Assembly: GCA_016181175.1 (NCBI GenBank)
Contig: JACOZV010000004.1
Span: 7,718-71,717 of the forward strand
Source of the DNA: Candidatus Yanofskybacteria bacterium
Lineage (GTDB): Bacteria > Patescibacteriota > Minisyncoccia > 2-02-FULL-40-12 > IGHO2-01-FULL-4-A
Reading direction: 5' to 3'
Length of the DNA: 64,000 nucleotides
A model generated the notes under the pieces. It was not told where the DNA came from and searched no databases. It saw only the letters and a program-made list of their open reading frames with translations. A program made the translations under genes and the position numbers. How positions within the stretch are numbered: position 1 is the first letter of the stretch; each line of letters begins with the position of its first letter. Positions 777-62,125 of the stretch are shown here, in pieces.

Positions 777-780
777 AAAG

Positions 781-838: not shown

Positions 839-854
839 TCTGTGGGGGCGGTAG
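839..854. repeat. 16-bp direct repeat TCTGTGGGGGCGGTAG, a copy of the tRNA-Tyr 3' end (T-stem 3' strand, acceptor 3' strand and discriminator)
   Basis: Identical to 1039..1054, which is the genuine 3' end of tRNA-Tyr. Confidence 0.85.
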
Positions 855-1036: not shown

Positions 1037-1038
1037 TA

Positions 1039-1054
1039 TCTGTGGGGGCGGTAG
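1039..1054. repeat. 16-bp direct repeat (native tRNA-Tyr 3' end)
   Basis: See 839..854. Confidence 0.85.
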
Positions 1055-1126
1055 GATTTGCACCTACGTAGGCACAAGGCCAGCAGATTTACAGTCTGCC
1101 CTCGTTGACTGCTTGAGTACACCCCC
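1042..1126 (-). tRNA. trnY: tRNA-Tyr (anticodon GTA), long variable arm
   Basis: The reverse complement gives GGGGGTG...GCAGA-CTGTAAA-TCTGC, a 15-nt variable arm, GTAGG-TGCAAAT-CCTAC, CGCCCCC and discriminator A. Confidence 0.85.
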
Positions 1127-1142
1127 TATTTTGGCCAACCGA

Positions 1143-1217
1143 TGGAGCCGACCCCGAGATTCGAACTCGGAACCTACGCTTTACAAAAGCGTTGCTCTGC
1201 CGTTGAGCTAGATCGGC
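1143..1217 (-). tRNA. trnT: tRNA-Thr (anticodon TGT), CCA encoded
   Basis: The reverse complement gives GCCGATC-TA-GCTCAACGGCAGAGC-A-ACGCT-TTTGTAA-AGCGT-AGGTT-CCGAG-TTCGAAT-CTCGG-GGTCGGC-T-CCA. Confidence 0.85.
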
Positions 1218-2289: not shown

Positions 2290-2988
2290 TTAAGGATTAG
2301 TGACGCCCTTGCATATTGCTTCCAATATGAGTTCTACTGATTTCTTGGAATTGTCGTTGGCCCCGATAGGATAATCGATCAGTTTGGGGTCACTATCGGT
2401 ATTAACTATGCCAACGACTTTAACACCTGCTCTTTTGGCTTCATGAACTGGCAATTGGCTCTCCTTAAGCGAGGTAATAAAAATTATGTCGGGAATACGT
2501 GACAGTTTGCGGATACCGCCGAATTTCAACTTCAGGCCTGCGATTTCTTTTTCTTTTAACACCTTTTCTTTTTTAGTAAACTTGTCAAAACCGCCTTCGG
2601 CTTGTTTTTTTTCAAGTTCTTCCAAATATTTAATCCTACCGGTAATTGTTTTGAAATTTGTCAAAGTGCCCCCAAGCCAGCGGTTGATTACATACGGCAT
2701 ACCCAATGTCTCGGCTGTTGTTTTAATCGAGTCGGCAGATTGTTTGGTCAAACCAACAAATAAAATCATCTTGCTTTCTGCCATGGCTTTCTTTAAAAAA
2801 TCCACCGCCTTAACGAGCGAATCTGTTGTTTTGATCAAATCTAATATATAGATATTATCTTTCAGGGTATAGATGTACGGTTTCATGTTTGGGTGGAAAA
2901 TCGTCTTCTTGCGCCCAAAATGCATCCCCGCCCTTACCATATCCTCATAGGCCGGCAAAAAACTGATTGTATTGTTTACTTCAGGCAT
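2290..2988 (-). CDS. rpsB: 30S ribosomal protein S2
   Basis: MHFGRKKTIFHPNMKPYIY...ILFVGLTKQ...VVGIVNTDSDP are S2 hallmarks. I take the start at the internal Met (2988); the ORF is called to 3045. Confidence 0.9.
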   Translation of the reverse strand: MPEVNNTISFLPAYEDMVRAGMHFGRKKTIFHPNMKPYIYTLKDNIYILDLIKTTDSLVKAVDFLKKAMAESKMILFVGLTKQSADSIKTTAETLGMPYVINRWLGGTLTNFKTITGRIKYLEELEKKQAEGGFDKFTKKEKVLKEKEIAGLKLKFGGIRKLSRIPDIIFITSLKESQLPVHEAKRAGVKVVGIVNTDSDPKLIDYPIGANDNSKKSVELILEAICKGVTNP

Positions 2989-3079
2989 GCTGAAAATAAT
3001 AACAAAAAAATTGGGGATATGCAACACAGCACTCGCCACCCACAAAAATTACAAACTTAATTAGCAATAGGATTTATCT

Positions 3080-3170
3080 ACCGGCTCCGCGCGCGCGTTT
3101 TGCTGGCCGCTACGCGAACAGGCACAAAACCCACGCGCCTTCACCGGAAAACCCGTCGGACTAGCACTTT
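3080..3170 (-). other. GC-rich, possibly structured leader upstream of rpsB
   Basis: A roughly 90-nt stretch at more than 60% GC in an AT-rich intergenic region, with multiple short complementary segments. Its position matches a ribosomal-protein leader. No family recognised. Confidence 0.2.
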
Positions 3171-3192
3171 GTCTTAGAAATTTACGACCGAT

Positions 3193-3215
3193 AAAAACTG
3201 CCGATTGGTATCGGC
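3193..3215 (-). terminator. rho-independent terminator (gccgataccaatcggc + T-run)
   Basis: Hairpin plus a T-tract on the minus strand downstream of the giant surface-protein gene. Confidence 0.55.
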
Positions 3216-3235
3216 TTGGGGTTTGTAATCTTTGA

Positions 3236-3263
3236 TGAAAAACAAAAGCCGAGGTGTCTCGGC
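3236..3263 (-). terminator. rho-independent terminator (gccgagacacctcggc + ttttgttttt)
   Basis: Hairpin plus a U-tract about 25 nt after the stop of ORF 3289..6984. Confidence 0.65.
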
Positions 3264-3288
3264 AAAAATTGACAGTTGCCCCTATGAC

Positions 3289-48411: not shown

Positions 48412-48905
48412 TAGGGCTTTTGATCGAGTTGAGGACGGAGGCAGGTCGCAACACACCAGAAACTACTTGATAGGTGGGTAAACGCCTTTATGGCCTATGA
48501 CTGAAAGAAGGCTTTTGCTGATCCAGAAGTGGCTATTAAACAGATATGTCAGCTACTGGCCACAATATAGTGAATTAAAAAACTACTTCCCTGGCCTATC
48601 AAAATCTGGCCCTCGGGGTTCTTTGTCTACAAAAGGTTAGAACTGGATAAAAACCGCTTAAACAAAGCACAAAAGGAAGCTCTCGCTTCCCTTCATTCAC
48701 ACTGGCTCGCTTGGCTAACCGCTTTCCGAACAACGGACTGGTCTAAAATCTTCCCATATCCATTGGTTTCTTTGAGGCAGATGCGCTACTTACTCACTTT
48801 AGTGGACTAACTTTTGCCCTCTTTTTTGCCTTTTTGAATAATTTTCGAACCGGACGACTCCAGCCCAAAAAATCGGGTACTTTACTGCTTACAATACTTT
48901 GCATT

Positions 48906-49075
48906 TAGGATCCTTGTTTGCGCGCCGGTTCTTCCTTGATTCGACGAAGTGTTTCGTCGAAGAGAATGGCGAAGGCGTCATCAAGATTACGCTGACCTTC
49001 TTCAGTTAAAGGAAGCTGGTGATAGCGCAGCTCAACAAGTAACGGTTTCTGTTTTCTTTTTTTCTTGGTGGTCAT
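48906..49075 (-). CDS. unlisted small basic protein (56 aa), translationally coupled to the upstream 492-aa gene
   Basis: MTTKKKRKQKPLLVELRYHQLPLTEEGQRNLDDAFAILFDETLRRIKEEPARKQGS. Its ATG lies 6 nt after the upstream stop. Confidence 0.35.
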
Positions 49076-49080
49076 GACAA

Positions 49081-50559
49081 TTACATTACCAACTTCCTAT
49101 ATGCCCCATCTAAAAAAGTGTCTATTGCTCTGATCTGATTATCTCTCCTTAAATCGAGGAGTGTTTTTATATCATCGTCGTCAAGCGCGATGATAAAACC
49201 TCGATCGTCGGACGCTGTATCTTTGCATCGTTGAATGAAGCGCGTCTTGTTGGTAAAACTCCTGCATATTAACAATCCGAATCTGCCACGATTAGTAGAA
49301 AACCTACCGGACAACTGGTCGAGTTCGGGGTTAGCCGGATCAGATGAGTAATTCTTACACTCAACAAAAATATAGCTTGATGGTACTCGCTTGTTCTGCG
49401 GTAATTCCCAAAAGAACCCTTTTTTTGCAGCGTTTTCGAAAACGATATCAACTTTCTTTCTCCTTTCATGTAGCGGCTGCTCCTTTTTCGGATTTATAAG
49501 AAACGGATAAAAAATGGCAGTGAGCGCCCCTTGAATATGGTTATGGAAATTGTCTGCGTCAGCATCACCAGTATCTATACGATCCAGTTCTGCTTTTAGA
49601 GCATCGAAGTCAAAAGCTGGGCGTGCACCTATAGCATCAATGTCTTCGTTACTAATTTCTTCGAGATTGTACTGTTTACTGTCGCGATATCGTCGCAAAA
49701 CTTCCGGATGATCTTTCGAAAAAGTGTAAAGAAATTGCTTCGAATGAGGGTGAAGTTCTTTGAGTGCCTTTTTTGTAGGCGGTCTACGCGTTCCATCTTT
49801 AAGCACCCTCACAAGGGCAGAGTTCGCGCTTAAATGCTCTTCCTGTAAAAAGTTTAGTACGAAATGCTGATAGTATTCCTGATGGCTAAACTCCAAACTA
49901 AAACGCGCAACTGCTTTAGGGACAAGTAAAACATTTCTATCATTACACACCGGAAGATTAACATACTCATTAGTCCATTCATTACGAACCGTATTCCAAA
50001 CAGTGCCGCTTGGTACGTTGTGCATTGTAATACCCCAAAATATACATTCGTTTTGGGTGTACTCGATTAACTTTCCGCGAATAATGTTAGTGGTCATGTC
50101 AGATATCTTGTCATGGCTGATGCCTTCGATAAGAAGTTCGCACTCTTCAAGATCTTTAAGAAACCCAGTTCTTACAGCCGAGCTTTCAGCCAACGCATCA
50201 TATAAATCGTTCGCCTGATCTCCTCCTACACCCCTACCTCTCGGGGATCCTCCAACAGACAAACCAAAACGAGTTTGATTCGGCTCTCGCAATCCTGAAA
50301 GCATGTATTTTGCGTCATCCTTTCTATCGGCTCTGATCAAGTCGATAACTCTTTGAAAAAAATTAACGATCTGATTGTGGCAATCGATTGACCACCTATC
50401 ATTCCGCTTTGAAAGAGCATAAGGATCAATAAACAAAGGAATATCCCCATTATTTATGGGAACATCGACAAAATCGAGTTCGTACTGGCTTTTACCAAGT
50501 CGGAAGTTCTCCGAAAAGGTTTCGTATCTTCTTGGTTGTTGTGTTCTTTGTCTTGGCAT
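49081..50559 (-). CDS. large hypothetical protein with a C-terminal PD-(D/E)xK-type nuclease motif
   Basis: ...KKVDIVFENAAKKGFFWELPQNKRVPSSYIFVECKNYS...GRFGLLICRSF fits D-x(n)-E-x-K with a downstream Q/R. No other recognisable domain. It is the last large gene of the type I R-M operon. Confidence 0.5.
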   Translation of the reverse strand: MPRQRTQQPRRYETFSENFRLGKSQYELDFVDVPINNGDIPLFIDPYALSKRNDRWSIDCHNQIVNFFQRVIDLIRADRKDDAKYMLSGLREPNQTRFGLSVGGSPRGRGVGGDQANDLYDALAESSAVRTGFLKDLEECELLIEGISHDKISDMTTNIIRGKLIEYTQNECIFWGITMHNVPSGTVWNTVRNEWTNEYVNLPVCNDRNVLLVPKAVARFSLEFSHQEYYQHFVLNFLQEEHLSANSALVRVLKDGTRRPPTKKALKELHPHSKQFLYTFSKDHPEVLRRYRDSKQYNLEEISNEDIDAIGARPAFDFDALKAELDRIDTGDADADNFHNHIQGALTAIFYPFLINPKKEQPLHERRKKVDIVFENAAKKGFFWELPQNKRVPSSYIFVECKNYSSDPANPELDQLSGRFSTNRGRFGLLICRSFTNKTRFIQRCKDTASDDRGFIIALDDDDIKTLLDLRRDNQIRAIDTFLDGAYRKLVM

Positions 50560-50567: not shown

Positions 50568-52250
50568 CTATTTGATCAATTTCTTATTCCAGCCCTTTGA
50601 TTTGATGAACTTGAGCGTGCCTTCGATTTCGGCTTTCCTAAACTTGTTTGGTTTCCATGCTTGAATCTTGTCATTGATCGTTGTGAGATCGTCGCTTTTT
50701 GCATCCTGCACAACCTTGCAGACGGTTGCCAAGCACTCAATTTGAGCGCTGGTGGAGTTTTTAATTGCCGGCATAAGATCATTAAGGACGGACTCCATGT
50801 TGCTCAAGATTTTTGAGTTGTATTTGAAGAGTTTACCGGAGTTAGCGCCTAAACCATAGACGCCGTTTTTTTGCTGAAAGAAGCCATTGCGAGGACTTGC
50901 GCCGGCGGTGATGGCTTTCTTAATCTGTAGATCGTAGGGGCCGAAGTTCTGCGAGGTAAAGCTGAAGCCGAGCGGTACCCTGTAAACTTCCTGCGCGAGA
51001 TATAAGAGCTTCGCCACAACCATTTCACCACGTTCAAAACGTTGCAACACCGCTCCGATGGCTTGCCACACCGGAAAGACACTTGCTTTGACAGGAACAG
51101 CAGCCACGCCCTCTTTTACCAACTCACCAGCAAGCGCTTTTGACAAGGCGGAATCAAAAAGTTCCTTCAGCTTCTCTTTTTGAACGAGAAGTCCTTTTTT
51201 ATACTCTTTAATAGCACTAAACCTCTCGGCAATGGCATGCTGGTCTGTCGTTGGTGGTACCATGATTTTTATTTTTTTAAGTGCGGTAGAGTTTACTGCG
51301 GCTTGATTTACCCACGGCGTGCATAGATAACGAAATCTATCGGTTGAATATAAGTATTGAAGATATATAGAGAAGTAGCGCGGATCTAATACTTTTTCGT
51401 TTGTGCGAATCCGAGTGATGTGATTTGAAAAGACATACTTGTAATCCTTGTCTATGTAAACGCTTTTTCCAACTAAACTAATACTGTTTGTATTATTAAA
51501 TAGGACATCACCACTCTTCAGGAAATAAGTTTCCGCATGTGGGTAATCCTGTGGAATATACTTGATGCTATCAAAGTTCAAACTACCGTCATCGCCGATA
51601 TTATTAGGTCTGATTTGTCCAATACCCTTCCCAACCGGACGGAAGGCAAAACCATTCGTAACATCGACTACTAACGCACCGATCTTTTCTTCCTTCCAGC
51701 TTTTTGACGATGATCCAAAAATCTTATTCAAAAGCGACTGAAAAAGCTGATCTGTTTTTTCAATAAGCGCATCATTGAGTTTTTGGGCTTCGCGGATAGA
51801 ATCAACACGTTCTGCAATTGCTTGTTGGGTATTTAAAGACGGCATTGGTACTCGTAAATTTTCAAGGAAGGTTCTATTCAAATGTGGTACTGCCGCTCCT
51901 TGCGCTGCTGATCTAATTTTTTGCTGATTAAATTGCAAAAGGTAAGCAAGGTATCGACTTTCCAGTGTTTCGTTATGAACCACTTTAGCAATCGTGGAAC
52001 CAACAAATCCTCTTAAACCGATACCAACGGTGCCGGCATAAGCACCATCCCAAACCAATAAAACATCGTCATTGTCGCATCGAACTCCGTTATTTTCTGA
52101 AGTGTAAAGCGTATATTGACCACTTCTTAAATTTTCAATGCCAATATAAGGCAAGGTGTCCTTTGCGGCTTCTGCTGCGGAAATCATCATTTTACCTTTC
52201 GCAAAAGAAATAAGTTCGCCTAATTTTTTTGTTTGATAATTACTTTGCAT
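50568..52250 (-). CDS. hsdS: type I restriction-modification specificity subunit HsdS (two TRDs) with a 180-aa C-terminal Panacea/DUF4065-like extension
   Basis: The N-terminus and central conserved region are typical HsdS (LGELISFAKG...IGIENL...; central NTQQAIAERVDSIREAQKLNDALIEKTDQLFQSLLNKIFG; distal HAIAERFSAIKEYKKGLLVQKEKLKELFDSAL). After about aa 380 an extra domain carries KLLYLAQEVYRVPLGFSFTSQNFGPY. Confidence 0.75.
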   Translation of the reverse strand: MQSNYQTKKLGELISFAKGKMMISAAEAAKDTLPYIGIENLRSGQYTLYTSENNGVRCDNDDVLLVWDGAYAGTVGIGLRGFVGSTIAKVVHNETLESRYLAYLLQFNQQKIRSAAQGAAVPHLNRTFLENLRVPMPSLNTQQAIAERVDSIREAQKLNDALIEKTDQLFQSLLNKIFGSSSKSWKEEKIGALVVDVTNGFAFRPVGKGIGQIRPNNIGDDGSLNFDSIKYIPQDYPHAETYFLKSGDVLFNNTNSISLVGKSVYIDKDYKYVFSNHITRIRTNEKVLDPRYFSIYLQYLYSTDRFRYLCTPWVNQAAVNSTALKKIKIMVPPTTDQHAIAERFSAIKEYKKGLLVQKEKLKELFDSALSKALAGELVKEGVAAVPVKASVFPVWQAIGAVLQRFERGEMVVAKLLYLAQEVYRVPLGFSFTSQNFGPYDLQIKKAITAGASPRNGFFQQKNGVYGLGANSGKLFKYNSKILSNMESVLNDLMPAIKNSTSAQIECLATVCKVVQDAKSDDLTTINDKIQAWKPNKFRKAEIEGTLKFIKSKGWNKKLIK

Positions 52251-52869
52251 AAGAATGCGCAGAGTATTGAATTCTACCTACGCGGTTTAATAAGCGCGTA
52301 TCCCGAACTTTTAAGTTTTCACCATCTTTATCGAATGGCCTTATTTCTGCTTTCCAAATAGATCTACAAAAAACAGTGTTCTGATCATTCATATATGTAA
52401 TTTCTAAACATACTGGTATCGCAAATTCAGCCATTTCATACCATTCTCTAAAATTTTTTATGAGTTGAAGTTTGATTCTAAATGACTCATCCTCTGTGGT
52501 CTGATAGAGGGGCACCTTATGATATCTTTCTTCTGCGATGGGCATACCGGTCGCTTTGGGTTGGGAGATATTAAAAGCCGATCCGCGACCAGAATTGAAA
52601 CAGTCAAACTCTATGGAAAAAACTATTTCAAAATGATTCGCATCAGCACGGATTATGCTTCCGGCATCCATCACACCATATCCATGCTCTACTTCACTAT
52701 GTCTAACCCCAACCCATATTCTTAATGGACGCAAAATTAAGCTGGGTACTGTACTTAATGCAGAATTCCAATCTGCTTTTCTGATAGCTTTTATCGAAAT
52801 CCACAGTGAAACAACTGCGGTTATCCCGACTAAAATATCTGCCGTTTTAGAAATTATTTCAAAATTCAT
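52240..52869 (-). CDS. hypothetical protein with N-terminal TM helix, embedded between hsdM and hsdS
   Basis: MNFEIISKTADILVGITAVVSLWISIKAI... It overlaps the hsdS start by 11 nt and begins 7 nt after the hsdM stop. Confidence 0.5.
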   Translation of the reverse strand: MNFEIISKTADILVGITAVVSLWISIKAIRKADWNSALSTVPSLILRPLRIWVGVRHSEVEHGYGVMDAGSIIRADANHFEIVFSIEFDCFNSGRGSAFNISQPKATGMPIAEERYHKVPLYQTTEDESFRIKLQLIKNFREWYEMAEFAIPVCLEITYMNDQNTVFCRSIWKAEIRPFDKDGENLKVRDTRLLNRVGRIQYSAHSYAK

Positions 52870-52875
52870 AATCTT

Positions 52876-54405
52876 TTATCCCAGTTTATCTGTCATCTCT
52901 TCTTGTAATTTTGTTAGATCTTTATTGATTTTCTCAATTTCTTTCAAAATAATTTTTGGCTCGCGGTGTTTTATCTCTTCTCCGATAGCATATGGGTTAT
53001 AAGTGTTTGCAGAAAGTATGTAATCATTTTCGATGATTTCTTTAACTGGCGTAAACCATGCAAGCTGTTTTTCAACTGCGCGGTTTTTATGCCAGAGTTC
53101 CAACAGCTTCGGAATATCATTTCTATATTGGCTGCCGAATTTTTTGGATGCTGAAAGCGATGAACCATCACCTTGCATATCAAAGAACCATACCTTTGCA
53201 GATTCATCGAGTTTCGGCACCGCCTTTTTTTTGAACACCAAGAAGGACGTTTTTACGCCGGCATACGGCTGAAACACGCCTGCCGGCATGGAAACAACCG
53301 CCTGTAAGTCCGTATTTTCAAGTAGAAAACGGCGGATCTCTTTATCATCGCGGTTGGTACCAAAAAATGAACCTTCGGGAAGGATTATGCCGGCTCTGCC
53401 ATTGGGCTTGAGCGAGTTTATAACATGACCCAAAAATAGAACCTGTGTTTTGGTTGATTTGACCGGCAAGGTTGGTTTTATACGTTCCCGATCAACCTTT
53501 CCAGAGAATGGTGGATTTGTAAGGACAATATCGAATGTGCGCAGATCATCCTCATCTTCAGATCCAGCAACCGTGTCTTTGCGCTTAATGTTCGCACTCT
53601 CTATGCCATGTAATATCAAATTCATAAGTGCTAACCGCACCATCTCCGGATCAACATCAGAACCCAAAAAGGTTTTTTTGGTTAGAAATTCCCACTGTTT
53701 TTTATCGAGCTTATCTCCAAACCCCCTCTTGTGTCCATTTTCCTCTTCAATGCTTTTGGGATCGCTATTTCTTAATCGGATCCAATCATAGCCGGAGATG
53801 AGGAAGCCACCAGAACCACACGCAGGATCATAAACAGTTTCGCCAATTTTTGGATTCACCATTTCAACTATGACGCGAACGATATGACGCGGAGTGAGAA
53901 ATTGTCCAAGTTCGCCGGCTGATTCAATACTTGCAAGCAGCTCTTCATAAAGATCGCCCTTAACATCTGTGTCTAATCCTGTTAAATTGATCGTGTCAAT
54001 AATTTCAATCGTGTTTTTTAATGTAACAGAATGGGGAATTTCGAGCTTCGCATCATAAAAAATTTGCCGTATGTTAGAGTGTCCATTTTGCAATCGCTCC
54101 ACAAAGGGAAATACCTCATCACGAACAATTTTATACAATTCATCGCCAGCTTTTTCTTTCCAGCGCGACCATCGGAATTTTTCGTTTTTGCCCTCGAAAA
54201 TTGATTTATGTTTACGCCCAGTAAGTTCTTCGCCTCTCTCCATAGAAATATCCTGTTCCTCAAGCATTTTCAAAAAAAACAAAAAGCTAATCTGCTGGAT
54301 CCTTCTCACAGGGTCTCGTAAACCTGCACCCCAAAGATAATCGTTCAGGCGATCTAATTTTTGGCGAAACTCTATTCTTAATTGTTGTATTTTTTGTTCG
54401 GGCAT
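52876..54405 (-). CDS. hsdM: type I restriction-modification N6-adenine DNA methyltransferase subunit
   Basis: NPPFSGKV catalytic motif, AdoMet site DPACGSGGFL, HsdM N-terminal domain. Confidence 0.85.
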   Translation of the reverse strand: MPEQKIQQLRIEFRQKLDRLNDYLWGAGLRDPVRRIQQISFLFFLKMLEEQDISMERGEELTGRKHKSIFEGKNEKFRWSRWKEKAGDELYKIVRDEVFPFVERLQNGHSNIRQIFYDAKLEIPHSVTLKNTIEIIDTINLTGLDTDVKGDLYEELLASIESAGELGQFLTPRHIVRVIVEMVNPKIGETVYDPACGSGGFLISGYDWIRLRNSDPKSIEEENGHKRGFGDKLDKKQWEFLTKKTFLGSDVDPEMVRLALMNLILHGIESANIKRKDTVAGSEDEDDLRTFDIVLTNPPFSGKVDRERIKPTLPVKSTKTQVLFLGHVINSLKPNGRAGIILPEGSFFGTNRDDKEIRRFLLENTDLQAVVSMPAGVFQPYAGVKTSFLVFKKKAVPKLDESAKVWFFDMQGDGSSLSASKKFGSQYRNDIPKLLELWHKNRAVEKQLAWFTPVKEIIENDYILSANTYNPYAIGEEIKHREPKIILKEIEKINKDLTKLQEEMTDKLG

Positions 54406-54407
54406 AG

Positions 54408-56663
54408 TTATCGTGTACAGATCCTTTGGTTAAGCTCCGAGAGAGCGGATTGTAAAACACCTTCCTCAAACACTCGCAACGCATAATTAAGACCACCGAT
54501 TTGCCGGAAGATCGGCTCGTTGAATATGGAAATATCAACCGGCTCTTTGCGAACGATACATTGCGACTTTACCAAACGCAGGATTTTTATTTGATCGGAT
54601 GCAAAGTTTTTCTCGATTAGCCATGATTCAAAAAGCTGATTTACACGCTGCTCATGTAGTTGCTCTTCTGTAGGGAACTCCTTTGTTTTGAGTGCTGCTT
54701 GTATGAAGTCATTGAGCGTGCCTACCGGATAGCGATATGCTTCTCGCAAGTTTGCTTCGTTAAAATAGAACTCCGGAGAATTAAGTTTTTCGGAAAGGAA
54801 GGCGGTTTCGTCATTTGAAAGATCTTCGCCTTGTTTAACTTTTGAAATAAGCGGCTCGGTTTTAGCCATCTCTTGAACTTGCTGCTCCCATGCCACCTGA
54901 TAATCATCGGCATCAATTCTTTCGCCTTCTGCTCCAACTTCGATATGCGCACGCTGCATAACCACGTCCATGTTTTCGGGTGCTGTTTCCGGCACTTGAA
55001 CAAAAAGTCGCTTCACCACTTCTTCCTCTTCCTGCGTTAAATCTTCAGCTTCGGTTCCCCACGGAATACCAGCTTTAATTTTTGCATAGGCAGAATACGG
55101 ATCAAATCCTTCGTCATTGAAGTAACGAGTAACGCCAGCAAAGTCATAAATACGAAAAGATGTTTTGCTGATTTTTTGATATAATCGGCTGCCACGTCCT
55201 CGCATCTGTTGGTAAAGGATCGGGGAACGTGTAGGACGCGCCATGATCAAGTTTTCTACCATTGGGACATCGATGCCGGTATCCATCATACCCACCGAAA
55301 CCGCTACCATCGGCATTTCTTGGTGCTTAAAACGTCTTATGGCTCCACGAGGATCTTCGGTATCGGAAGTAATAACTTCAGCGTATCTTCCCTTATATTC
55401 CGGATATGTCTGATTGAGATAATACGCCAATTGCGCAGCGTGTTTTTTCGTAACAGCATAAAGAATGGTTTTGCGATGGTGTTTTGGTTCATGCTTTTCT
55501 TCTTCCTCTCTGAATGTTTTTGCCAATTGCTCGTTTCTTGCCGGCACATTGATTTTTCTCTCCAAATCTTCGGCGTTGTAATCTTCACCCTCAAATTGCA
55601 CACCTTCTAAAGACACTTTGGTGTCGATCTGTAAGATCTCATAACCAGCAAGAAATCCCTCTTTGATGCCTCGTCGAATACTGTATAGAAATGTCGGTTT
55701 ACCCTTTTTTTCACGCTCATCCCAACAACCAAAGAGCTTATAGGTGTTACGATCAATAAACACACTCGGCGTTGCTGTAAGACCTATCCGGATTGCGTCA
55801 AAATGCGATAGGACAGCGTTGTAGATGCCGAAGATGGATCTATGTGCTTCGTCCGAGATAACCACATCAAAATAACCACTTGTAAAATTCGATAGTTGCG
55901 AATAAAGAGTGGGAAGTGTCGAGATGATTATTGAGGATTCGTCTTTTTGCTTGCCTCCGTAAAGAAGCTTTGTAGGATAATCTTTCAAAATTTCATCAAA
56001 AACTTCCTTTGTTTGTATGCCTAAATCAATGCGATCAACAAGAAATAAAACACGCCGGATGAGATTCGCTTCAAACAGCCGTTTGAGATAAAGAGCTATG
56101 GTATCTGTCTTGCCAGTGCCGGTTGCCATAGCGATGAGCATTTTGCGCAAACCGCCCTCAATGGTTTTGTCCATGATCTGCATGGCCTCCTTTTGATATG
56201 GGCGTGGTGTGCGTAATTCGCCACCTTTAAAATAATTGTCGGGTACAGGAATGGCGGTTATCGGCTTTTGATCTATTCGTAGGGTTTGGATTTTTTCTAA
56301 ATCGCGTTGAGAAAAGAAGGTAATTACCTTTTGCTCTGGACGATATTTGTAATCCCAAAAATAAATATCCTCTCCATTGGAAAGGAAAATGAAATCGATA
56401 CCCAGCTCTTCTGCGTAGGTCAATGCCTGCTGTTTTGCCAATACTGGTTCAGTTGAAAACCGCTTTGCTTCGATAAGCCCGATGGCTCTGCCGCGTCTAT
56501 CCCTCAAGAAATAATCGGCACGTCCATCCTTCACCGGATCTTCGGTTGAAACTTGATTTTTATCCTCAATATCCCAGCCAGCTTCGCGGAGTTTGCGATC
56601 GATGACAATGCGAGCGTCCGTTTCTCTTGAGTTGTTATTGTTATTTGTCATATTCATTTTCAT
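54408..56663 (-). CDS. hsdR: type I restriction enzyme R subunit (short form: N-terminal PD-(D/E)xK nuclease + SF2 helicase)
   Basis: DYFL...IGLIEAKR nuclease core; MATGTGKT Walker A; DEAH box (VVISDEAH). Its stop overlaps the hsdM start (ATGA). Confidence 0.8.
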   Translation of the reverse strand: MKMNMTNNNNNSRETDARIVIDRKLREAGWDIEDKNQVSTEDPVKDGRADYFLRDRRGRAIGLIEAKRFSTEPVLAKQQALTYAEELGIDFIFLSNGEDIYFWDYKYRPEQKVITFFSQRDLEKIQTLRIDQKPITAIPVPDNYFKGGELRTPRPYQKEAMQIMDKTIEGGLRKMLIAMATGTGKTDTIALYLKRLFEANLIRRVLFLVDRIDLGIQTKEVFDEILKDYPTKLLYGGKQKDESSIIISTLPTLYSQLSNFTSGYFDVVISDEAHRSIFGIYNAVLSHFDAIRIGLTATPSVFIDRNTYKLFGCWDEREKKGKPTFLYSIRRGIKEGFLAGYEILQIDTKVSLEGVQFEGEDYNAEDLERKINVPARNEQLAKTFREEEEKHEPKHHRKTILYAVTKKHAAQLAYYLNQTYPEYKGRYAEVITSDTEDPRGAIRRFKHQEMPMVAVSVGMMDTGIDVPMVENLIMARPTRSPILYQQMRGRGSRLYQKISKTSFRIYDFAGVTRYFNDEGFDPYSAYAKIKAGIPWGTEAEDLTQEEEEVVKRLFVQVPETAPENMDVVMQRAHIEVGAEGERIDADDYQVAWEQQVQEMAKTEPLISKVKQGEDLSNDETAFLSEKLNSPEFYFNEANLREAYRYPVGTLNDFIQAALKTKEFPTEEQLHEQRVNQLFESWLIEKNFASDQIKILRLVKSQCIVRKEPVDISIFNEPIFRQIGGLNYALRVFEEGVLQSALSELNQRICTR

Positions 56664-56676: not shown

Positions 56677-58476
56677 CTATAAATTCTCGTAATACCCCCT
56701 GATCTTTTTCGCCATGAGTTTGCGGCGTTCCTTCAAAAACCTTTCGTAATCCCCAAGCTCCATATTCTGAAAGCCATCCGGTATGCAATTCTGTTTTAGG
56801 TTCTCGGCGAGATCTTTTTTATCGGTTATGCCGCCATACTTGAGCTTGCCTCCTTCGGTTTGTTTCATTACTTCAGCCATGTACTCTTTGGGAGATTTTT
56901 TGCCGACTTTGATATTTATTTCAGATTGAGCATAAGTAAAGTTGCCAATCTGGTTGTAATCGCCCCTACTTAAGCCGCCTGCTTTCTTCAGGTATTCCTT
57001 TGGAAAGAGATGATGGATGTCGCCGCGATGACTGATCATATTACCAACGGTAATGTCGGTTGAAAGAAAGCCCCTGTCGTTATTTTTAACCTGTGCCGCA
57101 AAAAAAAGATTGAGAAATGGATTGCTGATGCTCGCCTTATCGAGTTCCTGAATAAGCTGCGCGTTCCAAAAAGCATCGGAGAGTTGCGCTTCTTCGATTG
57201 ATTTCAAAATCTCGCCAGCATCGCCATTGGAAATCTGCTTAATATCCGAATCAAATTGGCTTTCCGGTGATCCGGAATAACGTCCGGTGAGGATAGACAT
57301 CACAAACCAGCGTTGGACATACTTTTCGATCAAGCTTGGATCGACACTCTTATCGCGCAGCTTGAGATATAAAATATAGGCAAAGTTAAGAGCGTTTTGC
57401 GAATTGATAAGGTCGTTGCTTATAAAGCCGCAGGATTTGATGATCATTACAAACCGCTTGAAGTTTGTTTCATTTACAAAATCCAGTACCGCATCACGGA
57501 GTTTTTGGAAAGACGCATCCATTATGTCTTGCTCAAAACTGCGTGTTTCAAAGTTACGCCCCGAAAGCAGTCCGACAAGATCCGCCATCTTGCCTCGTTC
57601 AAATTGTTTGGTGAAACTCACACGCAACACATCGGAATAATCCGGATCGTAGAGGTCGTCATTTTCATCTTTAAGCCATGCAAGTTTTGAAAGGTAAACA
57701 GTTTTGTTAAACTCTGCATCATTTTCAGTTATGTGTTTGTAAAACTGCGGCTCGCGCGCAAGATGGCAAAAATAGTCGACACACTTTCTTAAATTAACGC
57801 CGAAATTATCCTCCTTGTCATAAGAAGCTATCTTCGACATGGCAAAGTCAGCTTGGCTTAATACAACACCTTTGGAATTGATACGGATAAAAATCTCGGT
57901 AACCGTTTCAATATCTAAACCGGCATCAAGTTCAATAAAACCAACCTGCTTGCTTTTGATCTGTAATAACTTCTCAATGTTCTTTTCAATGAGTTCACGA
58001 TTTACGTCAAGATTTTTGTCGCAATAGTCAGTTACATCTTTGAATAAGCCGCCGTCCTTACTCATAAGTTTTGAGATGTCAGCTATCCACGCCTTGTCCT
58101 TTTTTATTGCCGGTGTGAGTGTGGCAAATTCTTCTATGATGGGGTGAAATGCAATATAGATCCGTTCCTCCTTATAATCTTTATTGATAATGTTTTGACC
58201 GAGAATTGCCGCACGGAGAGCGGTAATGCGTTGCTGTCCGTCAATCAAGACCTTTTTGCCGTTGGAAATGGAGCCATCTTTAAGACGAACATCGGGGTTT
58301 TTCCATGCAATGATATAGCCGATCGGATAGCCACGATAAAGCGAATCCATCAGATCGCGCACCTTTGTCGAATCCCAAACAAACGGACGCTGGATTTCCG
58401 GTATAGCGATTTCCTTTTCCTGAACCCAATTCAGGATATTGCTCACAAAGTATTGATTGACTGTGTATTTTTGCAT
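56677..58476 (-). CDS. GmrSD-family type IV restriction enzyme (DUF262 ParB-like N domain + DUF1524 HNH-like C domain)
   Basis: IPEIQRPFVWDSTKVRDLMDSLYRGYPIGYII...LIDGQQRITAL is DUF262. The C-terminus GDIHHLFPKEYL is DUF1524. I take the start at MQKYTV (58476). The ORF call to 58638 reads through an HTH gene in another frame. Confidence 0.75.
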   Translation of the reverse strand: MQKYTVNQYFVSNILNWVQEKEIAIPEIQRPFVWDSTKVRDLMDSLYRGYPIGYIIAWKNPDVRLKDGSISNGKKVLIDGQQRITALRAAILGQNIINKDYKEERIYIAFHPIIEEFATLTPAIKKDKAWIADISKLMSKDGGLFKDVTDYCDKNLDVNRELIEKNIEKLLQIKSKQVGFIELDAGLDIETVTEIFIRINSKGVVLSQADFAMSKIASYDKEDNFGVNLRKCVDYFCHLAREPQFYKHITENDAEFNKTVYLSKLAWLKDENDDLYDPDYSDVLRVSFTKQFERGKMADLVGLLSGRNFETRSFEQDIMDASFQKLRDAVLDFVNETNFKRFVMIIKSCGFISNDLINSQNALNFAYILYLKLRDKSVDPSLIEKYVQRWFVMSILTGRYSGSPESQFDSDIKQISNGDAGEILKSIEEAQLSDAFWNAQLIQELDKASISNPFLNLFFAAQVKNNDRGFLSTDITVGNMISHRGDIHHLFPKEYLKKAGGLSRGDYNQIGNFTYAQSEINIKVGKKSPKEYMAEVMKQTEGGKLKYGGITDKKDLAENLKQNCIPDGFQNMELGDYERFLKERRKLMAKKIRGYYENL

Positions 58477-58477
58477 A

Positions 58478-58666
58478 TTACTTTTTTGGTTTCTTGATAT
58501 TCGATCGAGAACGAATAAACGCCTCGAGATCGCTCTCGCTGATCCGCCAATAGCCGACTTTGGTCGCCTTGAGCCGCCCACTCGAAATATAGCGATACAA
58601 GGATCGCTCGCTAACTCGCAAATACTTTGCCGCTTCACGTAATGTAAGAAATTTCTTTTTGGTCAT
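58478..58666 (-). CDS. excisionase/AlpA-family helix-turn-helix DNA-binding protein
   Basis: LTLREAAKYLRVSERSLYRYISSGRLKATKVGYWRISESDLEAF. It is the first gene of the defence operon. Confidence 0.65.
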   Translation of the reverse strand: MTKKKFLTLREAAKYLRVSERSLYRYISSGRLKATKVGYWRISESDLEAFIRSRSNIKKPKK

Positions 58667-58747: not shown

Positions 58748-59188
58748 TTAGCAGGGGTAACCATTTGGACAAATATCTTCCTGTCGTTCGGTCGTCGGAT
58801 CAATAGGGGTGTTTAAGTCCGGCACGGTATGGTTGCGTGCCATCAACCACCAAACGAGAAGTATCCAAAATCCCCAAAATAAAACTACTGGAACAACTTT
58901 TGAGATGTTTTTCTTTACTCTGATTTTCAACGGAGGGTGAAGTACATGTTTAAGCTCATGGCTTGCTAAATCGCCGTACTCGATTTTCTCCACACACTTT
59001 GGACACGCAACAAATTCTTTCTGCTGCTCGGAAAAGCGCTTGTTTACTCTTGCCCAGAACCCCTCGTCAATAAATGGATTTCTATTTTTTCCGCTCATAG
59101 TTTTGTGAGCGGCGAGTTTTGAAACACAAAACCCACCACTGGGAGGGCTTGCGCCCCTATGGAAGTTTCCCTCCATAACGTTAGGCAC
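58748..59188 (-). CDS. hypothetical protein with CxxC motif and C-terminal TM helix
   Basis: ACPKCVEKIEYGD...; C-terminal VVPVVLFWGFWILLVWWLMA. Start uncertain. Confidence 0.4.
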   Translation of the reverse strand: MPNVMEGNFHRGASPPSGGFCVSKLAAHKTMSGKNRNPFIDEGFWARVNKRFSEQQKEFVACPKCVEKIEYGDLASHELKHVLHPPLKIRVKKNISKVVPVVLFWGFWILLVWWLMARNHTVPDLNTPIDPTTERQEDICPNGYPC

Positions 59189-59332
59189 GCCCCAAATGAT
59201 GGGTTTTCTATGCCTAACGATTTGCGACCATGCCGCCAGCCGAAGCCGATGGTTTAGATCATTTGATATCCAATTGTGTTTTTAAGTATATCAGAAAAAC
59301 ATGAGATCCTGCAACGGATGAAAAATACTGCT

Positions 59333-59371: not shown

Positions 59372-59869
59372 ATGACGATGAATATGAAAATGAATAGTAA
59401 AAAAACCGAACCATTTCGCGTTGTTATAAATACAAGTACCGACCCCAATGTGCCATTGATTGAGCTTGTACGTGGTAACCGGAAAGCCAAACTTCCACCT
59501 ATTGCGATCAAAAACGTACGTCTTGATACCGATCGCTATTTGCTTGTCGTAAATGACGGCGAGCGCGTTGTTGCCTTTAAGTCAAAAAGGCACAAGAAGG
59601 GACTGGATAAAGAAACGAAGCTATTTAAAGTGCTGGTATTGCTTTTTGATTTTCGCCTCGAAAAAAAGGGTGAAAAAATACTCCACAGCAAAAACCTTAA
59701 CCCCGACTACACTTCTCTAAAAAATATCGCCGGAAATAGCGGAAGCCCAACACAAGAAGCAGCATATAGAAACATAAAGCGGTTAAATGGCTACTTTGAG
59801 GAAAATGGCTTGTCTATATGGATTGAAAAACACGGCAATGATTGCCGCCTCGTAGTTAAGAAGAGTTAA
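59372..59869 (+). CDS. hypothetical protein
   Basis: ORF only; no motif recognised. Confidence 0.4.
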   Translation: MTMNMKMNSKKTEPFRVVINTSTDPNVPLIELVRGNRKAKLPPIAIKNVRLDTDRYLLVVNDGERVVAFKSKRHKKGLDKETKLFKVLVLLFDFRLEKKGEKILHSKNLNPDYTSLKNIAGNSGSPTQEAAYRNIKRLNGYFEENGLSIWIEKHGNDCRLVVKKS

Positions 59870-59986
59870 TACGCGGACATTATTTTTACAGAAGCGCTCG
59901 ATACTTTAAGGATAAAAGCGCTCAAAAAGTAGAAAAAATCCCTCAAGGGACATTTTGAAAATGTCCCCGATTTTTCTCAATAGTGA

Positions 59987-60298
59987 ATGATATGGTCAAA
60001 GCAAGATACGCTTTGGCTTTTTTGTTTTCCCAAGCCAGCGCGGTCGGATGATATGAAGATACTAAATGAAAAAAACTTTTATCAAACTTCTGACTTTTGC
60101 CTCGCAACGGTTATTTCACTTTCTTTTCCGATAGAAGCAGTAGATCGGCAGAACACGCGAAAAGTTCAATTTATATTTCGTCGCAATAACGTCCTCGATA
60201 AGCTGATCGAGGATTTTTGGCGTGGTGAGATCCGAATTGATCCACAGCTTTTCTATAACCAATTACGAGTGATGAAAGCTCGGATTTACAACGACTAA
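59987..60298 (+). CDS. hypothetical protein
   Basis: ORF only. Confidence 0.35.
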   Translation: MIWSKQDTLWLFCFPKPARSDDMKILNEKNFYQTSDFCLATVISLSFPIEAVDRQNTRKVQFIFRRNNVLDKLIEDFWRGEIRIDPQLFYNQLRVMKARIYND

Positions 60299-60299
60299 C

Positions 60300-60554
60300 A
60301 TGCTTAAACCATCGGCAATTGAAGAATTAAGGTCGATATTGCTCGAAGAGTTTGGGCGTGATGTTGATATTAAAACAGCCAGAACGATCGGCGAGGATTT
60401 AGTCGGCTTCTACGACACTCTCGCAAAGATCGCGCATAAGGATAAAACGATAAGCAAAAATCTTTCCCCTTGCTCGGGTTCCATAGTGGACTATCCACTT
60501 GCAATGAGTAGTTCATTGAAAAAGAGGGTGGAACCCGAACAAAGAGAAAGATAA
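60300..60554 (+). CDS. hypothetical protein
   Basis: ORF only; tightly packed with its neighbours. Confidence 0.35.
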   Translation: MLKPSAIEELRSILLEEFGRDVDIKTARTIGEDLVGFYDTLAKIAHKDKTISKNLSPCSGSIVDYPLAMSSSLKKRVEPEQRER

Positions 60555-60565
60555 AAAAAGAAATT

Positions 60566-62125
60566 ATGAAAAACATTTTTAGTGGTAACCACAAAAAAGG
60601 AAAGGTGTCCGACAAACTGAAGGGCGCGGAATTGGTTTTAGATGTGATCGAAAAAAGCGACTTATGGCTCTTTCACGATCAATTAAACGAGGCATACGCC
60701 GTTATAGCTGGTGATGGAGCATCAATAATGAAAATCGACTCGCAAAAGTTCCACAACTGGCTTTTTAATCATATCTATGACGAAACCGGAAAGATCAGCA
60801 ACACAGCCGCGTGCGAGGCAGCCATAAAGGTTCTGAAACATCAAGCAGAAACTGGGAATCTATTTGAGCTTGGAGTTAGGGTAAAACTGCGTGAGGGCGG
60901 TATTTGGTACGATCTCGGCGGTCAAAACTTTGTGAGTATCGCAGAAGATGGATGGTTGGTAACTGATCCTCCGCAACCAATCCTCTTTAAGAGGTTCGGG
61001 CATCAAAAAGAGCAGGTGCGACCGGAACGCGAGGGTAGCATGAATGAGTTTATGGAGCTTATTAACCTACAAGACAAAAAAGAATCTTTGCTCCTCATGG
61101 TTTACTTGGTTGCATCGTTTATTCCTAACTTTCCTCATCCTGTATTGATTGTGCATGGTTCGCAGGGGGCTGCTAAAAGTACCGCATGTAAATTGATTAA
61201 AGAATTAGTGGATCCATCTGCATTAGAAACTTCGACTATAAACGACGATAAAGACATAAAAGAATTGGTACAAGCCGCATCGCATCATTGGCTGTTAGTT
61301 CTCGATAATATCTCCTATATCTCCGAGAAAATCTCGGACACGATCTCACGAATATGTACCGGAGGCGGATTATCTAAAAGAATACATTATAGCAATGACG
61401 ACGACTTCATTTACAACTTTATGCACATAGTCGCCATTAACGGAATCCATCAGATCGTAAGCAAGCCCGATCTCCTCGATCGATCAATCTTGTTGGCGCT
61501 TGAACGCATCCCTGAAGATAAAAGGATAACGGAGGAGCAACTTTGGGGTCGTTTCAATGCAATGAAAGGAAGAGTTCTCGGCGCGGTTTTCGATGCCGTA
61601 TCCGGAGCATTGCGTGAATATCCGAATGTGCAGTTAGCAACATTGCCACGAATGGCGGACTTTGCACGCTGGGGATGCGCTATTGCGAGGACGCTCGGCT
61701 ACACCGACGAGGACTTTATGAATGTATACAAAACGAATATCGGAAGGCAGAACCAAGAGGCGCTTTCAGCAAGCGCCACAGCAGCAGTCATCATCAAGCT
61801 CATGGAAGATAATGATGTTTTCGAAGATACACCATCTGCTCTTTTGCGACTAATGGATCCGATAGCCGACGATCTCAAGGTAAAAGAAGCGAAGGATTAT
61901 CCACGACAGGCAAACTGGCTTTGGAGGCGCATTGAAGCGGTTATACCGAACCTTGCTGACGCCGGCATAAAGGTCGAGCAAACGAAAGATACTGAACGGA
62001 AGATAAAAATATCAAAGATATTGCGCGGTGATGACAGCACTGAAATTATGCCGTCTTCCGAAAAACCAGCAGAAGAACCTGCAAAAGACAGCATCGACAG
62101 CATAGACGGCACTTTCCCCCTGTAG
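60566..62125 (+). CDS. plasmid/phage replication-associated P-loop NTPase (primase-helicase C-terminal / D5-VirE-like)
   Basis: Walker A VLIVHGSQGAAKSTACKLI; Walker B WLLVLDNIS. The size and context are typical of replication proteins on integrative elements. Confidence 0.5.
   Translation: MKNIFSGNHKKGKVSDKLKGAELVLDVIEKSDLWLFHDQLNEAYAVIAGDGASIMKIDSQKFHNWLFNHIYDETGKISNTAACEAAIKVLKHQAETGNLFELGVRVKLREGGIWYDLGGQNFVSIAEDGWLVTDPPQPILFKRFGHQKEQVRPEREGSMNEFMELINLQDKKESLLLMVYLVASFIPNFPHPVLIVHGSQGAAKSTACKLIKELVDPSALETSTINDDKDIKELVQAASHHWLLVLDNISYISEKISDTISRICTGGGLSKRIHYSNDDDFIYNFMHIVAINGIHQIVSKPDLLDRSILLALERIPEDKRITEEQLWGRFNAMKGRVLGAVFDAVSGALREYPNVQLATLPRMADFARWGCAIARTLGYTDEDFMNVYKTNIGRQNQEALSASATAAVIIKLMEDNDVFEDTPSALLRLMDPIADDLKVKEAKDYPRQANWLWRRIEAVIPNLADAGIKVEQTKDTERKIKISKILRGDDSTEIMPSSEKPAEEPAKDSIDSIDGTFPL

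What the first reader, a model, noticed from the sequence alone, without database searches (positions are those of the whole stretch)
48906..50559. 492-aa PD-(D/E)xK-motif protein plus a coupled 56-aa protein directly after the HsdS-Panacea gene: candidate cognate toxin/effector
Immediately downstream of the fused HsdS (9-nt gap) is a 492-aa protein. Its only recognisable feature is a C-terminal restriction-endonuclease-like D...E-C-K motif (DIVFEN...YIFVECKNYS). A 56-aa basic ORF is translationally coupled 6 nt after its stop. Panacea antitoxins are typically encoded next to their toxin. This nuclease-motif protein is therefore the obvious candidate partner, which would make it a new toxin type, or an Shedu/Hachiman-like stand-alone effector.
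Basis: inference. Interest (0 to 1): 0.8.

Follow-up and report, generated by a model that had tools for sequence, protein, structure and literature searches.

The report
Candidate defence nuclease after restriction operon
The 492-aa gene is a member of a widespread, uncharacterised family (Pfam DUF8370, PADLOC candidate PDC-M36A) that joins a domain of unknown fold to a FokI-like DNA-cutting domain; it most likely acts alone as an anti-phage nuclease and is not the toxin partner of the neighbouring HsdS protein.

Summary

The family has about 2,500 representative clusters across many phyla and is already catalogued as the untested PADLOC candidate PDC-M36A.

The toxin-antitoxin reading fails. 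None of more than 85 other DUF8370 loci has a Panacea-like or any other conserved neighbour. The only relatives of the HsdS C-terminal extension sit in Type I operons without DUF8370. The Panacea match itself is below threshold.

The DUF8370 domain occurs alone on small plasmids, or fused to the nuclease, to PNP_UDP_1 or to CHAT. That pattern suggests a sensor or regulator driving a swappable effector.

My best reading is a stand-alone defence nuclease appended to a Type I RM and GmrSD island. The 56-aa ORF is unconfirmed as a gene. Interest is moderate.

The parts
49081..50559 (-). 492-aa two-domain protein (DUF8370 N-domain plus C-terminal PD-(D/E)xK nuclease domain); member of PADLOC candidate family PDC-M36A
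   Evidence: ORF. PADLOC PDC-M36A E 2.1e-48. The identical protein on public contigs is annotated PF28123:DUF8370. At least 2,988 homologues. AF2 model with pLDDT 89.9 and pTM 0.90.
49612..50559 (-). N-terminal DUF8370 domain (residues 1-316), mostly helical with one beta-hairpin. Conserved polar constellation: D39, D45, E92, D150, S153, D154, N158 (plus K254, K274).
49081..49611 (-). C-terminal FokI/Mrr-like PD-(D/E)xK endonuclease domain (residues about 317-492). Catalytic D371 (49447-49449), E400 (49360-49362) and K402 (49354-49356).
48905..49075 (-). 56-aa basic ORF 5 nt after the 492-aa stop; unconfirmed as a gene
   Evidence: ORF. No family hit in Pfam, PADLOC, NCBIfam or PHROGs. Not called on identical contigs. 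Only marginal similarity to small ORFs in the same position in L096 and L005. DNA homology with the 90%-identical relative stops at the DUF8370 stop codon.
48669..48696 (-). Terminator-like hairpin (12-bp stem plus T-rich tail), the first one downstream of the operon
   Evidence: No promoter-like site was predicted between hsdS and the 492-aa gene, which is consistent with co-transcription (inference).
50568..52250 (-). HsdS (two target-recognition domains, residues 1-385) with a 175-aa C-terminal extension (50568-51095) that is Panacea-like or DarG-C-like below threshold
   Evidence: Methylase_S 5.7e-34. PADLOC Specificity_I 4.8e-65 over residues 4-377. Extension: SocA_Panacea E 0.018, covering profile positions 2-113 of 113; NCBIfam DarG C-terminal region 6e-6, far below its cut-off.
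52876..56663 (-). hsdM (52876-54405) and hsdR (54408-56663) of the Type I RM operon that the 492-aa gene is appended to
   Evidence: N6_Mtase 1.1e-61, ResIII 3.5e-34, EcoEI_R_C 2.8e-17. PADLOC MTase_I 3.4e-141 and REase_I 6.7e-70.

Best explanation
The 492-aa gene encodes a self-contained, single-polypeptide defence-type nuclease. It has been appended to the 3' end of a Type I restriction-modification operon within a small defence island (GmrSD-like enzyme, hsdR, hsdM, a 209-aa ORF, hsdS, this gene). The N-terminal DUF8370 domain is the family-defining module. It has a novel fold and a conserved acidic/polar pocket. It most likely senses or binds a trigger, or carries out a regulatory reaction, and controls the C-terminal FokI-like non-specific DNA-cleavage domain. 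As with FokI-type domains in general, that domain probably has to pair with a second copy to cut double-stranded DNA. Shown here: the fold of the C-domain, invariance of its catalytic triad, the absence of any conserved partner gene, wide horizontal distribution, and exchange of the C-terminal domain for other effector types. Inferred: sensing by the N-domain, activation by oligomerisation, an anti-phage role, and co-transcription with the hsd genes.
For: The C-domain is a FokI/Mrr-like PD-(D/E)xK fold with invariant D371, E400 and K402. The same N-domain, with the same invariant residues, is fused in other proteins to PNP_UDP_1 (P0242, P0321) or to CHAT (P0281), or stands alone. One conserved N-module with swappable effector domains is the pattern seen in sensor-effector immune proteins (established knowledge of conflict-system architectures). 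No partner gene is conserved: the commonest neighbour family is in 9 of 85 clustered loci and no Pfam family is in more than 4 of 282 flanking ORFs. All six contexts with Pfam annotation contain RM, defence or mobile-element genes within a few kb: Type I RM plus GmrSD (window), Type III RM plus HEPN_AbiV plus recombinase (L087), Type II RM (L085), Dcm plus HNH plus recombinase/IS (L001), MTase-Mrr fusion (L004), conjugation genes (L089). Four further genome loci have it at the 3' end of Type I operons (L009, L011, L035, L038). It matches PADLOC PDC-M36A, a candidate derived from genes embedded in BREX, DISARM or Type I RM systems (bioRxiv 10.1101/2024.01.29.577857). Identity of 45-72% across Patescibacteria, Proteobacteria, Acidobacteria, Firmicutes and Bacteroidota implies horizontal spread.
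Against: No family member has been tested experimentally as far as I could find. About a third of the best representatives are N-domain-only proteins (47 of 150), some as the sole cargo of tiny plasmids. That fits an autonomous enzyme or toxin better than a pure sensor. Many flanking genes are housekeeping, and I did not compute a statistical enrichment in defence islands. Only a handful of sequences show the PNP and CHAT fusions.
Confidence: 0.5

Rival explanations
1. Type IV-like or Type IIS-like restriction endonuclease. The N-domain would be a DNA-recognition module, for example for modified phage DNA, and the C-terminal FokI-like domain would cut nearby. No cognate methyltransferase would be needed.
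For: The best structural matches are restriction enzymes built the same way, with an N-terminal recognition domain and a C-terminal cleavage domain: FokI, N.BspD6I, AspBHI, MspJI, EcoT38I. No methyltransferase is consistently linked. The gene sits next to RM systems.
Against: The N-domain matches no known DNA- or modified-base-binding fold. Its invariant residues are mostly acidic (D39, D45, E92, D150, D154), which is unusual for a DNA-binding surface. The same domain is fused to non-DNA effectors, PNP_UDP_1 and CHAT, and often occurs alone. A pure DNA-recognition role does not explain these points.
Confidence: 0.2
2. The DUF8370 domain is itself the active enzyme or toxin (a novel metal-dependent hydrolase or similar) with a role in plasmid or mobile-element biology, such as addiction, exclusion or competition. 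The nuclease would be an accessory, and the position next to the RM operon would be incidental to integration in a variable region.
For: N-only forms are common (47 of 150). They are cargo on small plasmids: a B. cereus 4.56-kb plasmid carries only a RepL-like gene plus this one, and they also occur on Acinetobacter, Rhodococcus and Lacticaseibacillus plasmids. No separate nuclease homologue lies nearby. The invariant D/E/N/S/K constellation looks catalytic. Integrases, recombinases and TrwB are among the neighbours.
Against: There are no hits in 50,697 phage records. The architecture with swappable effectors, the RM adjacency and the PADLOC guilt-by-embedding origin all point to defence. The two roles are not mutually exclusive.
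Confidence: 0.15
3. One reading: the 492-aa nuclease is a toxin neutralised by the Panacea-like C-terminal domain of HsdS (a PanAT-type pair), possibly with the 56-aa protein as a third component.
For: The gap to hsdS is 8 nt, on the same strand. The HsdS extension aligns end to end with the SocA_Panacea profile at E 0.018 and weakly with the DarG antitoxin C-terminal region. A PD-(D/E)xK nuclease could plausibly be toxic.
Against: There is no co-occurrence in either direction. More than 85 other DUF8370 loci lack any C-extension or Panacea neighbour. The recovered HsdS C-extension relatives (L091: hsdM-hsdS_Cext-hsdR; L092: hsdR-hsdM-hsdS_Cext followed by unrelated genes) lack DUF8370. The Panacea hit is below Pfam's gathering score. 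The gene belongs to a six-gene operon. The 56-aa ORF is not conserved.
Confidence: 0.05

Closest known systems
PADLOC phage-defence candidate PDC-M36 (gene A); Payne et al., bioRxiv 10.1101/2024.01.29.577857
   Same: The protein hits both PDC-M36A HMMs (2.1e-48 and 3.6e-20). Like the founding examples, it is attached to a Type I RM operon. The candidate set was derived from genes embedded in BREX, DISARM or Type I RM systems.
   Different: PDC-M36 was defined as a three-gene cassette, FAM_01399>>FAM_00303>>FAM_00303. In the window, and in the more than 85 loci examined, the gene has no conserved companion. The candidate is untested, so membership says nothing about mechanism.
FokI / BspD6I-type Type IIS cleavage domains and Mrr-like Type IV/ISP nuclease domains (MspJI, AspBHI, LlaBIII)
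   Different: Sequence identity is only 9-15%. The N-terminal region is unrelated to FokI recognition domains, SRA-like domains or any solved fold. There is no linked methyltransferase.
Single-protein or two-part sensor-effector defence nucleases (Shedu SduA, Hachiman HamA, Cap4, Can2/Card1, NucC)
   Different: There is no PADLOC hit to Shedu, Hachiman or CBASS models. There is no HamB-type helicase partner, no CARF or SAVED domain, and no cyclase nearby. The sensor-like domain is DUF8370.
PrrC-EcoprrI (anticodon nuclease kept latent by a Type I RM complex)
   Same: An accessory nuclease gene is housed in a Type I hsd operon. This offers a precedent for functional coupling between an embedded effector and the RM proteins (my own knowledge, and the mention).
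   Different: PrrC is found almost exclusively inside Type I RM loci. Only about 5% of DUF8370 loci are next to Type I RM (4 of 80 genome loci). The protein families are unrelated, and no evidence of interaction exists here.
PanAT (Panacea antitoxin-toxin) modules, PMC8832971
   Same: There is a short intergenic distance to a gene whose product carries a possibly Panacea-like domain.
   Different: The architecture is not conserved in any other species. The operon is longer than three genes. The Panacea match is below threshold. The putative antitoxin domain is fused to HsdS, and it recurs in hsd operons without this nuclease.

Membership tests
Pfam PF28123 (DUF8370) | Match to the family HMM | tested here: met
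   The identical protein on public contigs carries the precomputed hit PF28123:DUF8370. All 120 listed homologues do too. N-only proteins carry the same accession, so the family corresponds to residues 1-316. The model is absent from the local Pfam copy.
PADLOC PDC-M36 | Hit to the PDC-M36A HMMs | tested here: met
   PDLC04597 E 2.1e-48 and PDLC04598 E 3.6e-20.
PADLOC PDC-M36 | Presence of the multi-gene cassette (FAM_01399>>FAM_00303>>FAM_00303) | tested here: inconclusive
   None of the other five operon proteins hits a PDC-M36 model, and no PDC-M36 partner appeared among the top families of 282 flanking ORFs. I could not establish which cassette family the A models stand for, or whether models of the other genes exist.
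PD-(D/E)xK nuclease superfamily (FokI/Mrr-like branch) | alpha-beta-beta-beta-alpha-beta core fold | tested here: met
PD-(D/E)xK nuclease superfamily (FokI/Mrr-like branch) | Catalytic D ... (D/E)-x-K residues on strands 2 and 3 | tested here: met
   D371 lies at the start of strand 372-376, and E400-C-K402 at the end of strand 396-402. All three are invariant in 47 sequences.
PD-(D/E)xK nuclease superfamily (FokI/Mrr-like branch) | Metal-dependent DNA cleavage | not testable with these tools
   This needs biochemistry.
PanAT toxin-antitoxin (Panacea/DUF4065) | Neighbour carries a Panacea (PF13274) domain | tested here: inconclusive
   HsdS residues 386-560: E 0.018, 16.4 bits against a gathering score of 25.7, though the match spans profile positions 2-113 of 113. 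NCBIfam DarG C-terminal region 6e-6, far below its cut-off.
PanAT toxin-antitoxin (Panacea/DUF4065) | At most 100 nt between the two genes (criterion 1 of PMC8832971) | tested here: met
   The gap is 8 nt.
PanAT toxin-antitoxin (Panacea/DUF4065) | [quoted passage not shown] | tested here: not met
   No C-extension homologue lies next to DUF8370 in more than 85 other loci. No DUF8370 gene lies next to the C-extension homologues in L091 and L092.
PanAT toxin-antitoxin (Panacea/DUF4065) | Neighbourhood does not suggest an operon longer than three genes (criterion 3) | tested here: not met
   Six same-strand ORFs with gaps of 8 nt or less, or overlapping (hsdR, hsdM, 209-aa ORF, hsdS, 492-aa gene, 56-aa ORF), precede the first terminator-like hairpin.
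PanAT toxin-antitoxin (Panacea/DUF4065) | Toxicity of the toxin and neutralisation by the antitoxin | not testable with these tools
   This needs expression assays.
Shedu / Hachiman | Match to SduA (DUF4263) or HamA models; HamB helicase partner for Hachiman | tested here: not met
Type IV (modification-dependent) restriction enzymes | Stand-alone nuclease with no cognate methyltransferase | tested here: met
   No methyltransferase family occurs in more than 2 of 145 upstream or 137 downstream flanking ORFs.
Type IV (modification-dependent) restriction enzymes | Recognised modified-DNA reader domain (SRA, EVE/PUA, winged helix and others) | tested here: not met

The most novel reading that the evidence does not exclude
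A PrrC-EcoprrI-style guard. In this particular operon, the Panacea-like C-terminal extension of HsdS would tether the DUF8370 nuclease and keep it latent on the Type I RM complex. Phage anti-restriction proteins that attack the RM complex would then release the nuclease as a second line of defence. This would be the first case of a specificity subunit carrying an antitoxin-type domain to hold an embedded effector.
Probability: 0.06. Interest if true: 0.8.

Novelty: new member of a known kind. Interest (0 to 1): 0.42.

Why it matters
The DUF8370 domain has a confidently predicted fold with no solved relative and about 2,500 representative clusters across bacteria. It occurs with at least three different effector domains: a FokI-like nuclease, a PNP-type nucleosidase and a CHAT protease. 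If it is an immune sensor, it would be a new sensor class for single-protein defence systems, and it would validate a PADLOC guilt-by-embedding candidate. A compact FokI-like cleavage module under the control of a new regulatory domain could also interest enzyme engineers. For the scan itself, the lesson is negative. Adjacency to an antitoxin-like domain did not survive comparative genomics, so the new Panacea toxin claim should be dropped.

Tried and rejected
- Sequence search of the 492-aa protein against PDB chains found nothing at E of 10 or below.
- A tblastn search of 50,697 phage records gave no match.
- Literature searches for 'PDC-M36', 'PF28123' and 'DUF8370' found no papers. Only the supplement of the Payne et al. 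preprint lists the cassette.
- For the 56-aa ORF, Pfam, PADLOC, NCBIfam and PHROGs gave no hit. A permissive tblastn gave one marginal match, to L005 (E 0.013 in a tiny database). That match disappears with composition-based statistics. The 55-aa ORF after the 90%-identical relative aligns only at E 0.07, and DNA homology ends at the DUF8370 stop codon.
- I considered that these small ORFs belong to a family of 'LTxE' mini-proteins seen beside serine recombinases in CPR loci (L010, L011, L013). The alignment was not convincing, so I make no claim.
- I looked for a split version of the fusion, a separate nuclease gene beside N-only DUF8370 genes. None was found.
- A profile of the HsdS C-extension against the PDB gave only an insignificant DarG hit (E 1.8).
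- No multimer prediction was possible with the tools and caps.

Full report
**Observation**

On the minus strand the window carries a tight run of ORFs:
- hsdR, 54408-56663, 751 aa
- hsdM, 52876-54405, 509 aa
- an unknown 209-aa ORF, 52240-52869
- hsdS, 50568-52250, 560 aa
- the 492-aa ORF, 49081-50559
- a 56-aa ORF, 48905-49075

The sequence shows 8 nt between the hsdS stop and the 492-aa ATG, and 5 nt between the 492-aa stop and the 56-aa ATG. DIVFEN lies at residues 371-376 and YIFVECKNYS at 396-405. The first terminator-like hairpin on this strand follows at 48696-48669. No promoter-like site lies between hsdS and the 492-aa gene, so co-transcription with the hsd genes is plausible but inferred.

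**What the 492-aa protein is**

- The local Pfam copy gave only a sub-threshold Mrr_cat hit at residues 396-437.
- PADLOC gave PDC-M36A at E 2.1e-48 and 3.6e-20.
- PHROGs gave family 27295, of unknown function, at 3.6e-105.
- The large protein database returned at least 2,988 homologues, all carrying a precomputed PF28123 hit. Context look-ups name that family DUF8370.
- One genome per species yielded 323 relatives. The best 80 share 43-72% identity and span Patescibacteria, Proteobacteria, Acidobacteria, Firmicutes, Bacteroidota, Chloroflexi and others. This points to horizontal spread.

**Structure**

An AF2 model built from 47 homologues is confident (pLDDT 89.9, pTM 0.90).

- lower matches to MspJI, Can2, HamA, Shedu and Cap4

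D371 sits at the start of one core strand and E400-x-K402 at the end of the next. All three are invariant.

**The N-domain is the family-defining module**

- A tblastn search of plasmids found many hits covering only residues about 15-300.
- These are 300-320-aa proteins on small plasmids. One example is a 4.56-kb B. cereus plasmid whose only other annotated gene is a RepL-like HTH protein. Others are on Acinetobacter and B. amyloliquefaciens plasmids.
- These proteins also carry PF28123.
- An N-domain profile searched against 1.84 billion representatives found 2,555 hits (E of 0.001 or below). The domain is always at the N-terminus.
- Of the best 150, 88 carry the PD-(D/E)xK domain, 47 are N-only, and the rest have other C-termini.
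- Pfam identifies PNP_UDP_1 in P0242 and P0321, and CHAT in P0281.
- A constellation of residues is invariant down to 24% identity and in every architecture: D39, D45, E92, G99, G108, G132, D150, S153, D154, N158, plus near-invariant K254 and K274.
- N-only loci have no separate homologue of the nuclease domain nearby.

**Genomic context**

I called ORFs in 85 loci (84 fetched loci, a few of them duplicate contigs, plus the window) and clustered the neighbours within 6 kb. Apart from DUF8370 itself, no cluster occurs in more than 9 loci. The largest clusters are proteins of about 400 aa that I did not annotate individually. The genes immediately upstream and downstream differ from locus to locus in size, strand and distance.

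Pfam and PADLOC scans of 145 upstream and 137 downstream flanking ORFs found no family in more than four members. The list mixes two kinds of gene:
- integrases, TrwB, STAND NTPases, Schlafen-type helicases, HerA, GmrSD, MazG-like proteins and RM components
- housekeeping genes

Type I RM lies directly upstream in four genome loci (L009, L011, L035, L038). Contexts annotated with Pfam show the following:
- Type III RM, then DUF8370, then an unknown 427-aa protein, HEPN_AbiV and a recombinase (L087)
- a Type II RM (L085)
- Dcm plus HNH plus recombinase (L001)
- an MTase-Mrr fusion (L004)
- conjugation genes (L089)

In the window, a GmrSD-like gene (56677-58638) precedes hsdR. The gene therefore behaves as a mobile, self-contained unit that tends to lodge in RM, defence or mobile regions. 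I did not compute a formal enrichment.

**Test of the toxin-antitoxin idea**

The HsdS C-terminal extension (residues 386-560) matches SocA_Panacea end to end, but only at E 0.018 and 16.4 bits against a cut-off of 25.7. It also matches the DarG antitoxin C-terminal region at 6e-6, far below that model's cut-off.

Its only relatives in the 5.8-billion-protein collection are four HsdS C-terminal fragments. In the two contexts recovered, the fusion sits in hsd operons with no DUF8370 gene:
- L091: hsdM, hsdS_Cext, hsdR
- L092: hsdR, hsdM, hsdS_Cext, then glyoxalase and other genes

Conversely, no tblastn match to the extension occurs in any other DUF8370 locus.

The Panacea paper defined TA-like loci by three criteria (PMC8832971):
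- At most 100 nt between the genes. This is met.
- Conservation in at least two species. This is not met.
- No operon longer than three genes. This is not met.

The pairing looks like a one-off juxtaposition.

**The 56-aa ORF**

It is basic (pI 9.8) but has no family hit. It was not called on three identical public contigs. Open stretches of this length are common in the window. The 90%-identical relative (L096) has a 55-aa ORF 14 nt downstream, but the two align only at E 0.07 over 21 residues. DNA similarity stops at the DUF8370 stop codon. The 72%-identical relative (L005) has an 81-aa ORF 4 nt downstream. A permissive search matched it, but composition-corrected BLAST did not. Other close relatives have unrelated ORFs or none. 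I treat it as an unconfirmed gene that is not a conserved partner.

**Mechanism**

The most economical reading is a single-polypeptide defence nuclease. A conserved N-terminal module with a polar pocket, and a C-terminal domain exchangeable between nuclease, nucleosidase-type and caspase-like protease domains, is the architecture of sensor-effector immune proteins (established knowledge). FokI-type domains cut double-stranded DNA as dimers. Activation by trigger-induced self-association is therefore a reasonable inference.

Rivals are:
- a Type IV or IIS-like restriction enzyme, weakened by the acidic invariant residues, the non-DNA effectors and the novel fold
- an autonomous DUF8370 enzyme with a plasmid or mobile-element role, supported by the abundant N-only forms
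- the Panacea TA model, contradicted by the comparative data

**Comparison with what is known, and novelty**

The family is already in Pfam as a DUF. [quoted passage not shown] I found no experimental test.

The window gene is therefore a new member of a catalogued but uncharacterised candidate family. It is not a new toxin type. What this analysis adds is the domain dissection:
- the FokI-like C-domain
- the N-domain with no structural neighbour in the PDB
- the alternative effector fusions
- the N-only plasmid forms
- the refutation of the Panacea pairing

Interest is moderate (0.42).

Noticed in passing
window 52240-52869 (-): A 209-aa ORF lies between hsdM and hsdS and overlaps the hsdS start by 11 nt. 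Its N-terminus is hydrophobic. It has no hit in Pfam, PADLOC, NCBIfam or PHROGs, and it is called as a gene on identical public contigs. It is a second embedded gene of unknown function in the same Type I operon.
   Followed up: partly
window 50568-51095 (-); L091 1990-2688; L092 6001-6769: The 175-aa C-terminal extension of HsdS is very rare. Only four relatives were found among 5.8 billion proteins, all of them HsdS C-termini in Type I operons. It is Panacea-like or DarG-C-like only below threshold. Its role within Type I RM systems is unexplained.
   Followed up: partly
window 56677-58638 (-): A GmrSD-like (DUF262/DUF1524-type) putative Type IV restriction enzyme lies directly upstream of hsdR. 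The motifs DGQQR and HHLFP are visible in the translation, and the public contig is annotated PF03235 GmrSD_N. The whole stretch of about 48.9-58.6 kb is a defence island.
   Followed up: partly
window 59144-59260 (-): There is a full-length match to the Rfam LOOT RNA (RF03000; 71.1 bits against a gathering score of 46.4). It lies just beyond the defence island and overlaps the start of a 146-aa ORF at 58748-59188.
   Followed up: no
window 59372-62125 (+): A divergent block of ORFs (165, 103 and 519 aa) lies next to the island. They were not analysed. They could belong to a mobile element that delivered the island.
   Followed up: no
L093 (NZ_AP022914.1, 4,560-bp B. cereus plasmid) 2500-3456; L094; L095: N-domain-only DUF8370 proteins (300-320 aa) are cargo of very small plasmids. 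One plasmid has only a RepL-like HTH gene plus this gene. This suggests the domain has an autonomous function.
   Followed up: partly
proteins P0242, P0321, P0281: The DUF8370 N-domain is fused to PNP_UDP_1 (751 aa and 1,144 aa; the latter also keeps a nuclease-like region) and to CHAT (603 aa). About 13 further representatives have C-terminal regions that match neither the nuclease domain nor, where tested, Pfam.
   Followed up: partly
L087 4863-8344: In a CPR contig the DUF8370 nuclease follows a Type III RM (Mod plus Res). It is followed, 4 nt later, by an unknown 427-aa protein with no Pfam or PADLOC hit, then by HEPN_AbiV and a serine recombinase.
   Followed up: no
L005 11487-11732; L010 5645-5821; L011 15931-16146; L013 8709-8915: Small (58-81 aa) helical ORFs with an 'L(S/T)xxE(A)...L(I)' pattern recur in CPR loci, often beside serine recombinases. 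Their relation to the window's 56-aa ORF is unproven.
   Followed up: partly
window 123-1217 (-): There is a cluster of four tRNA genes: Trp-CCA, Thr-GGT, Tyr-GTA and Thr-TGT.
   Followed up: no
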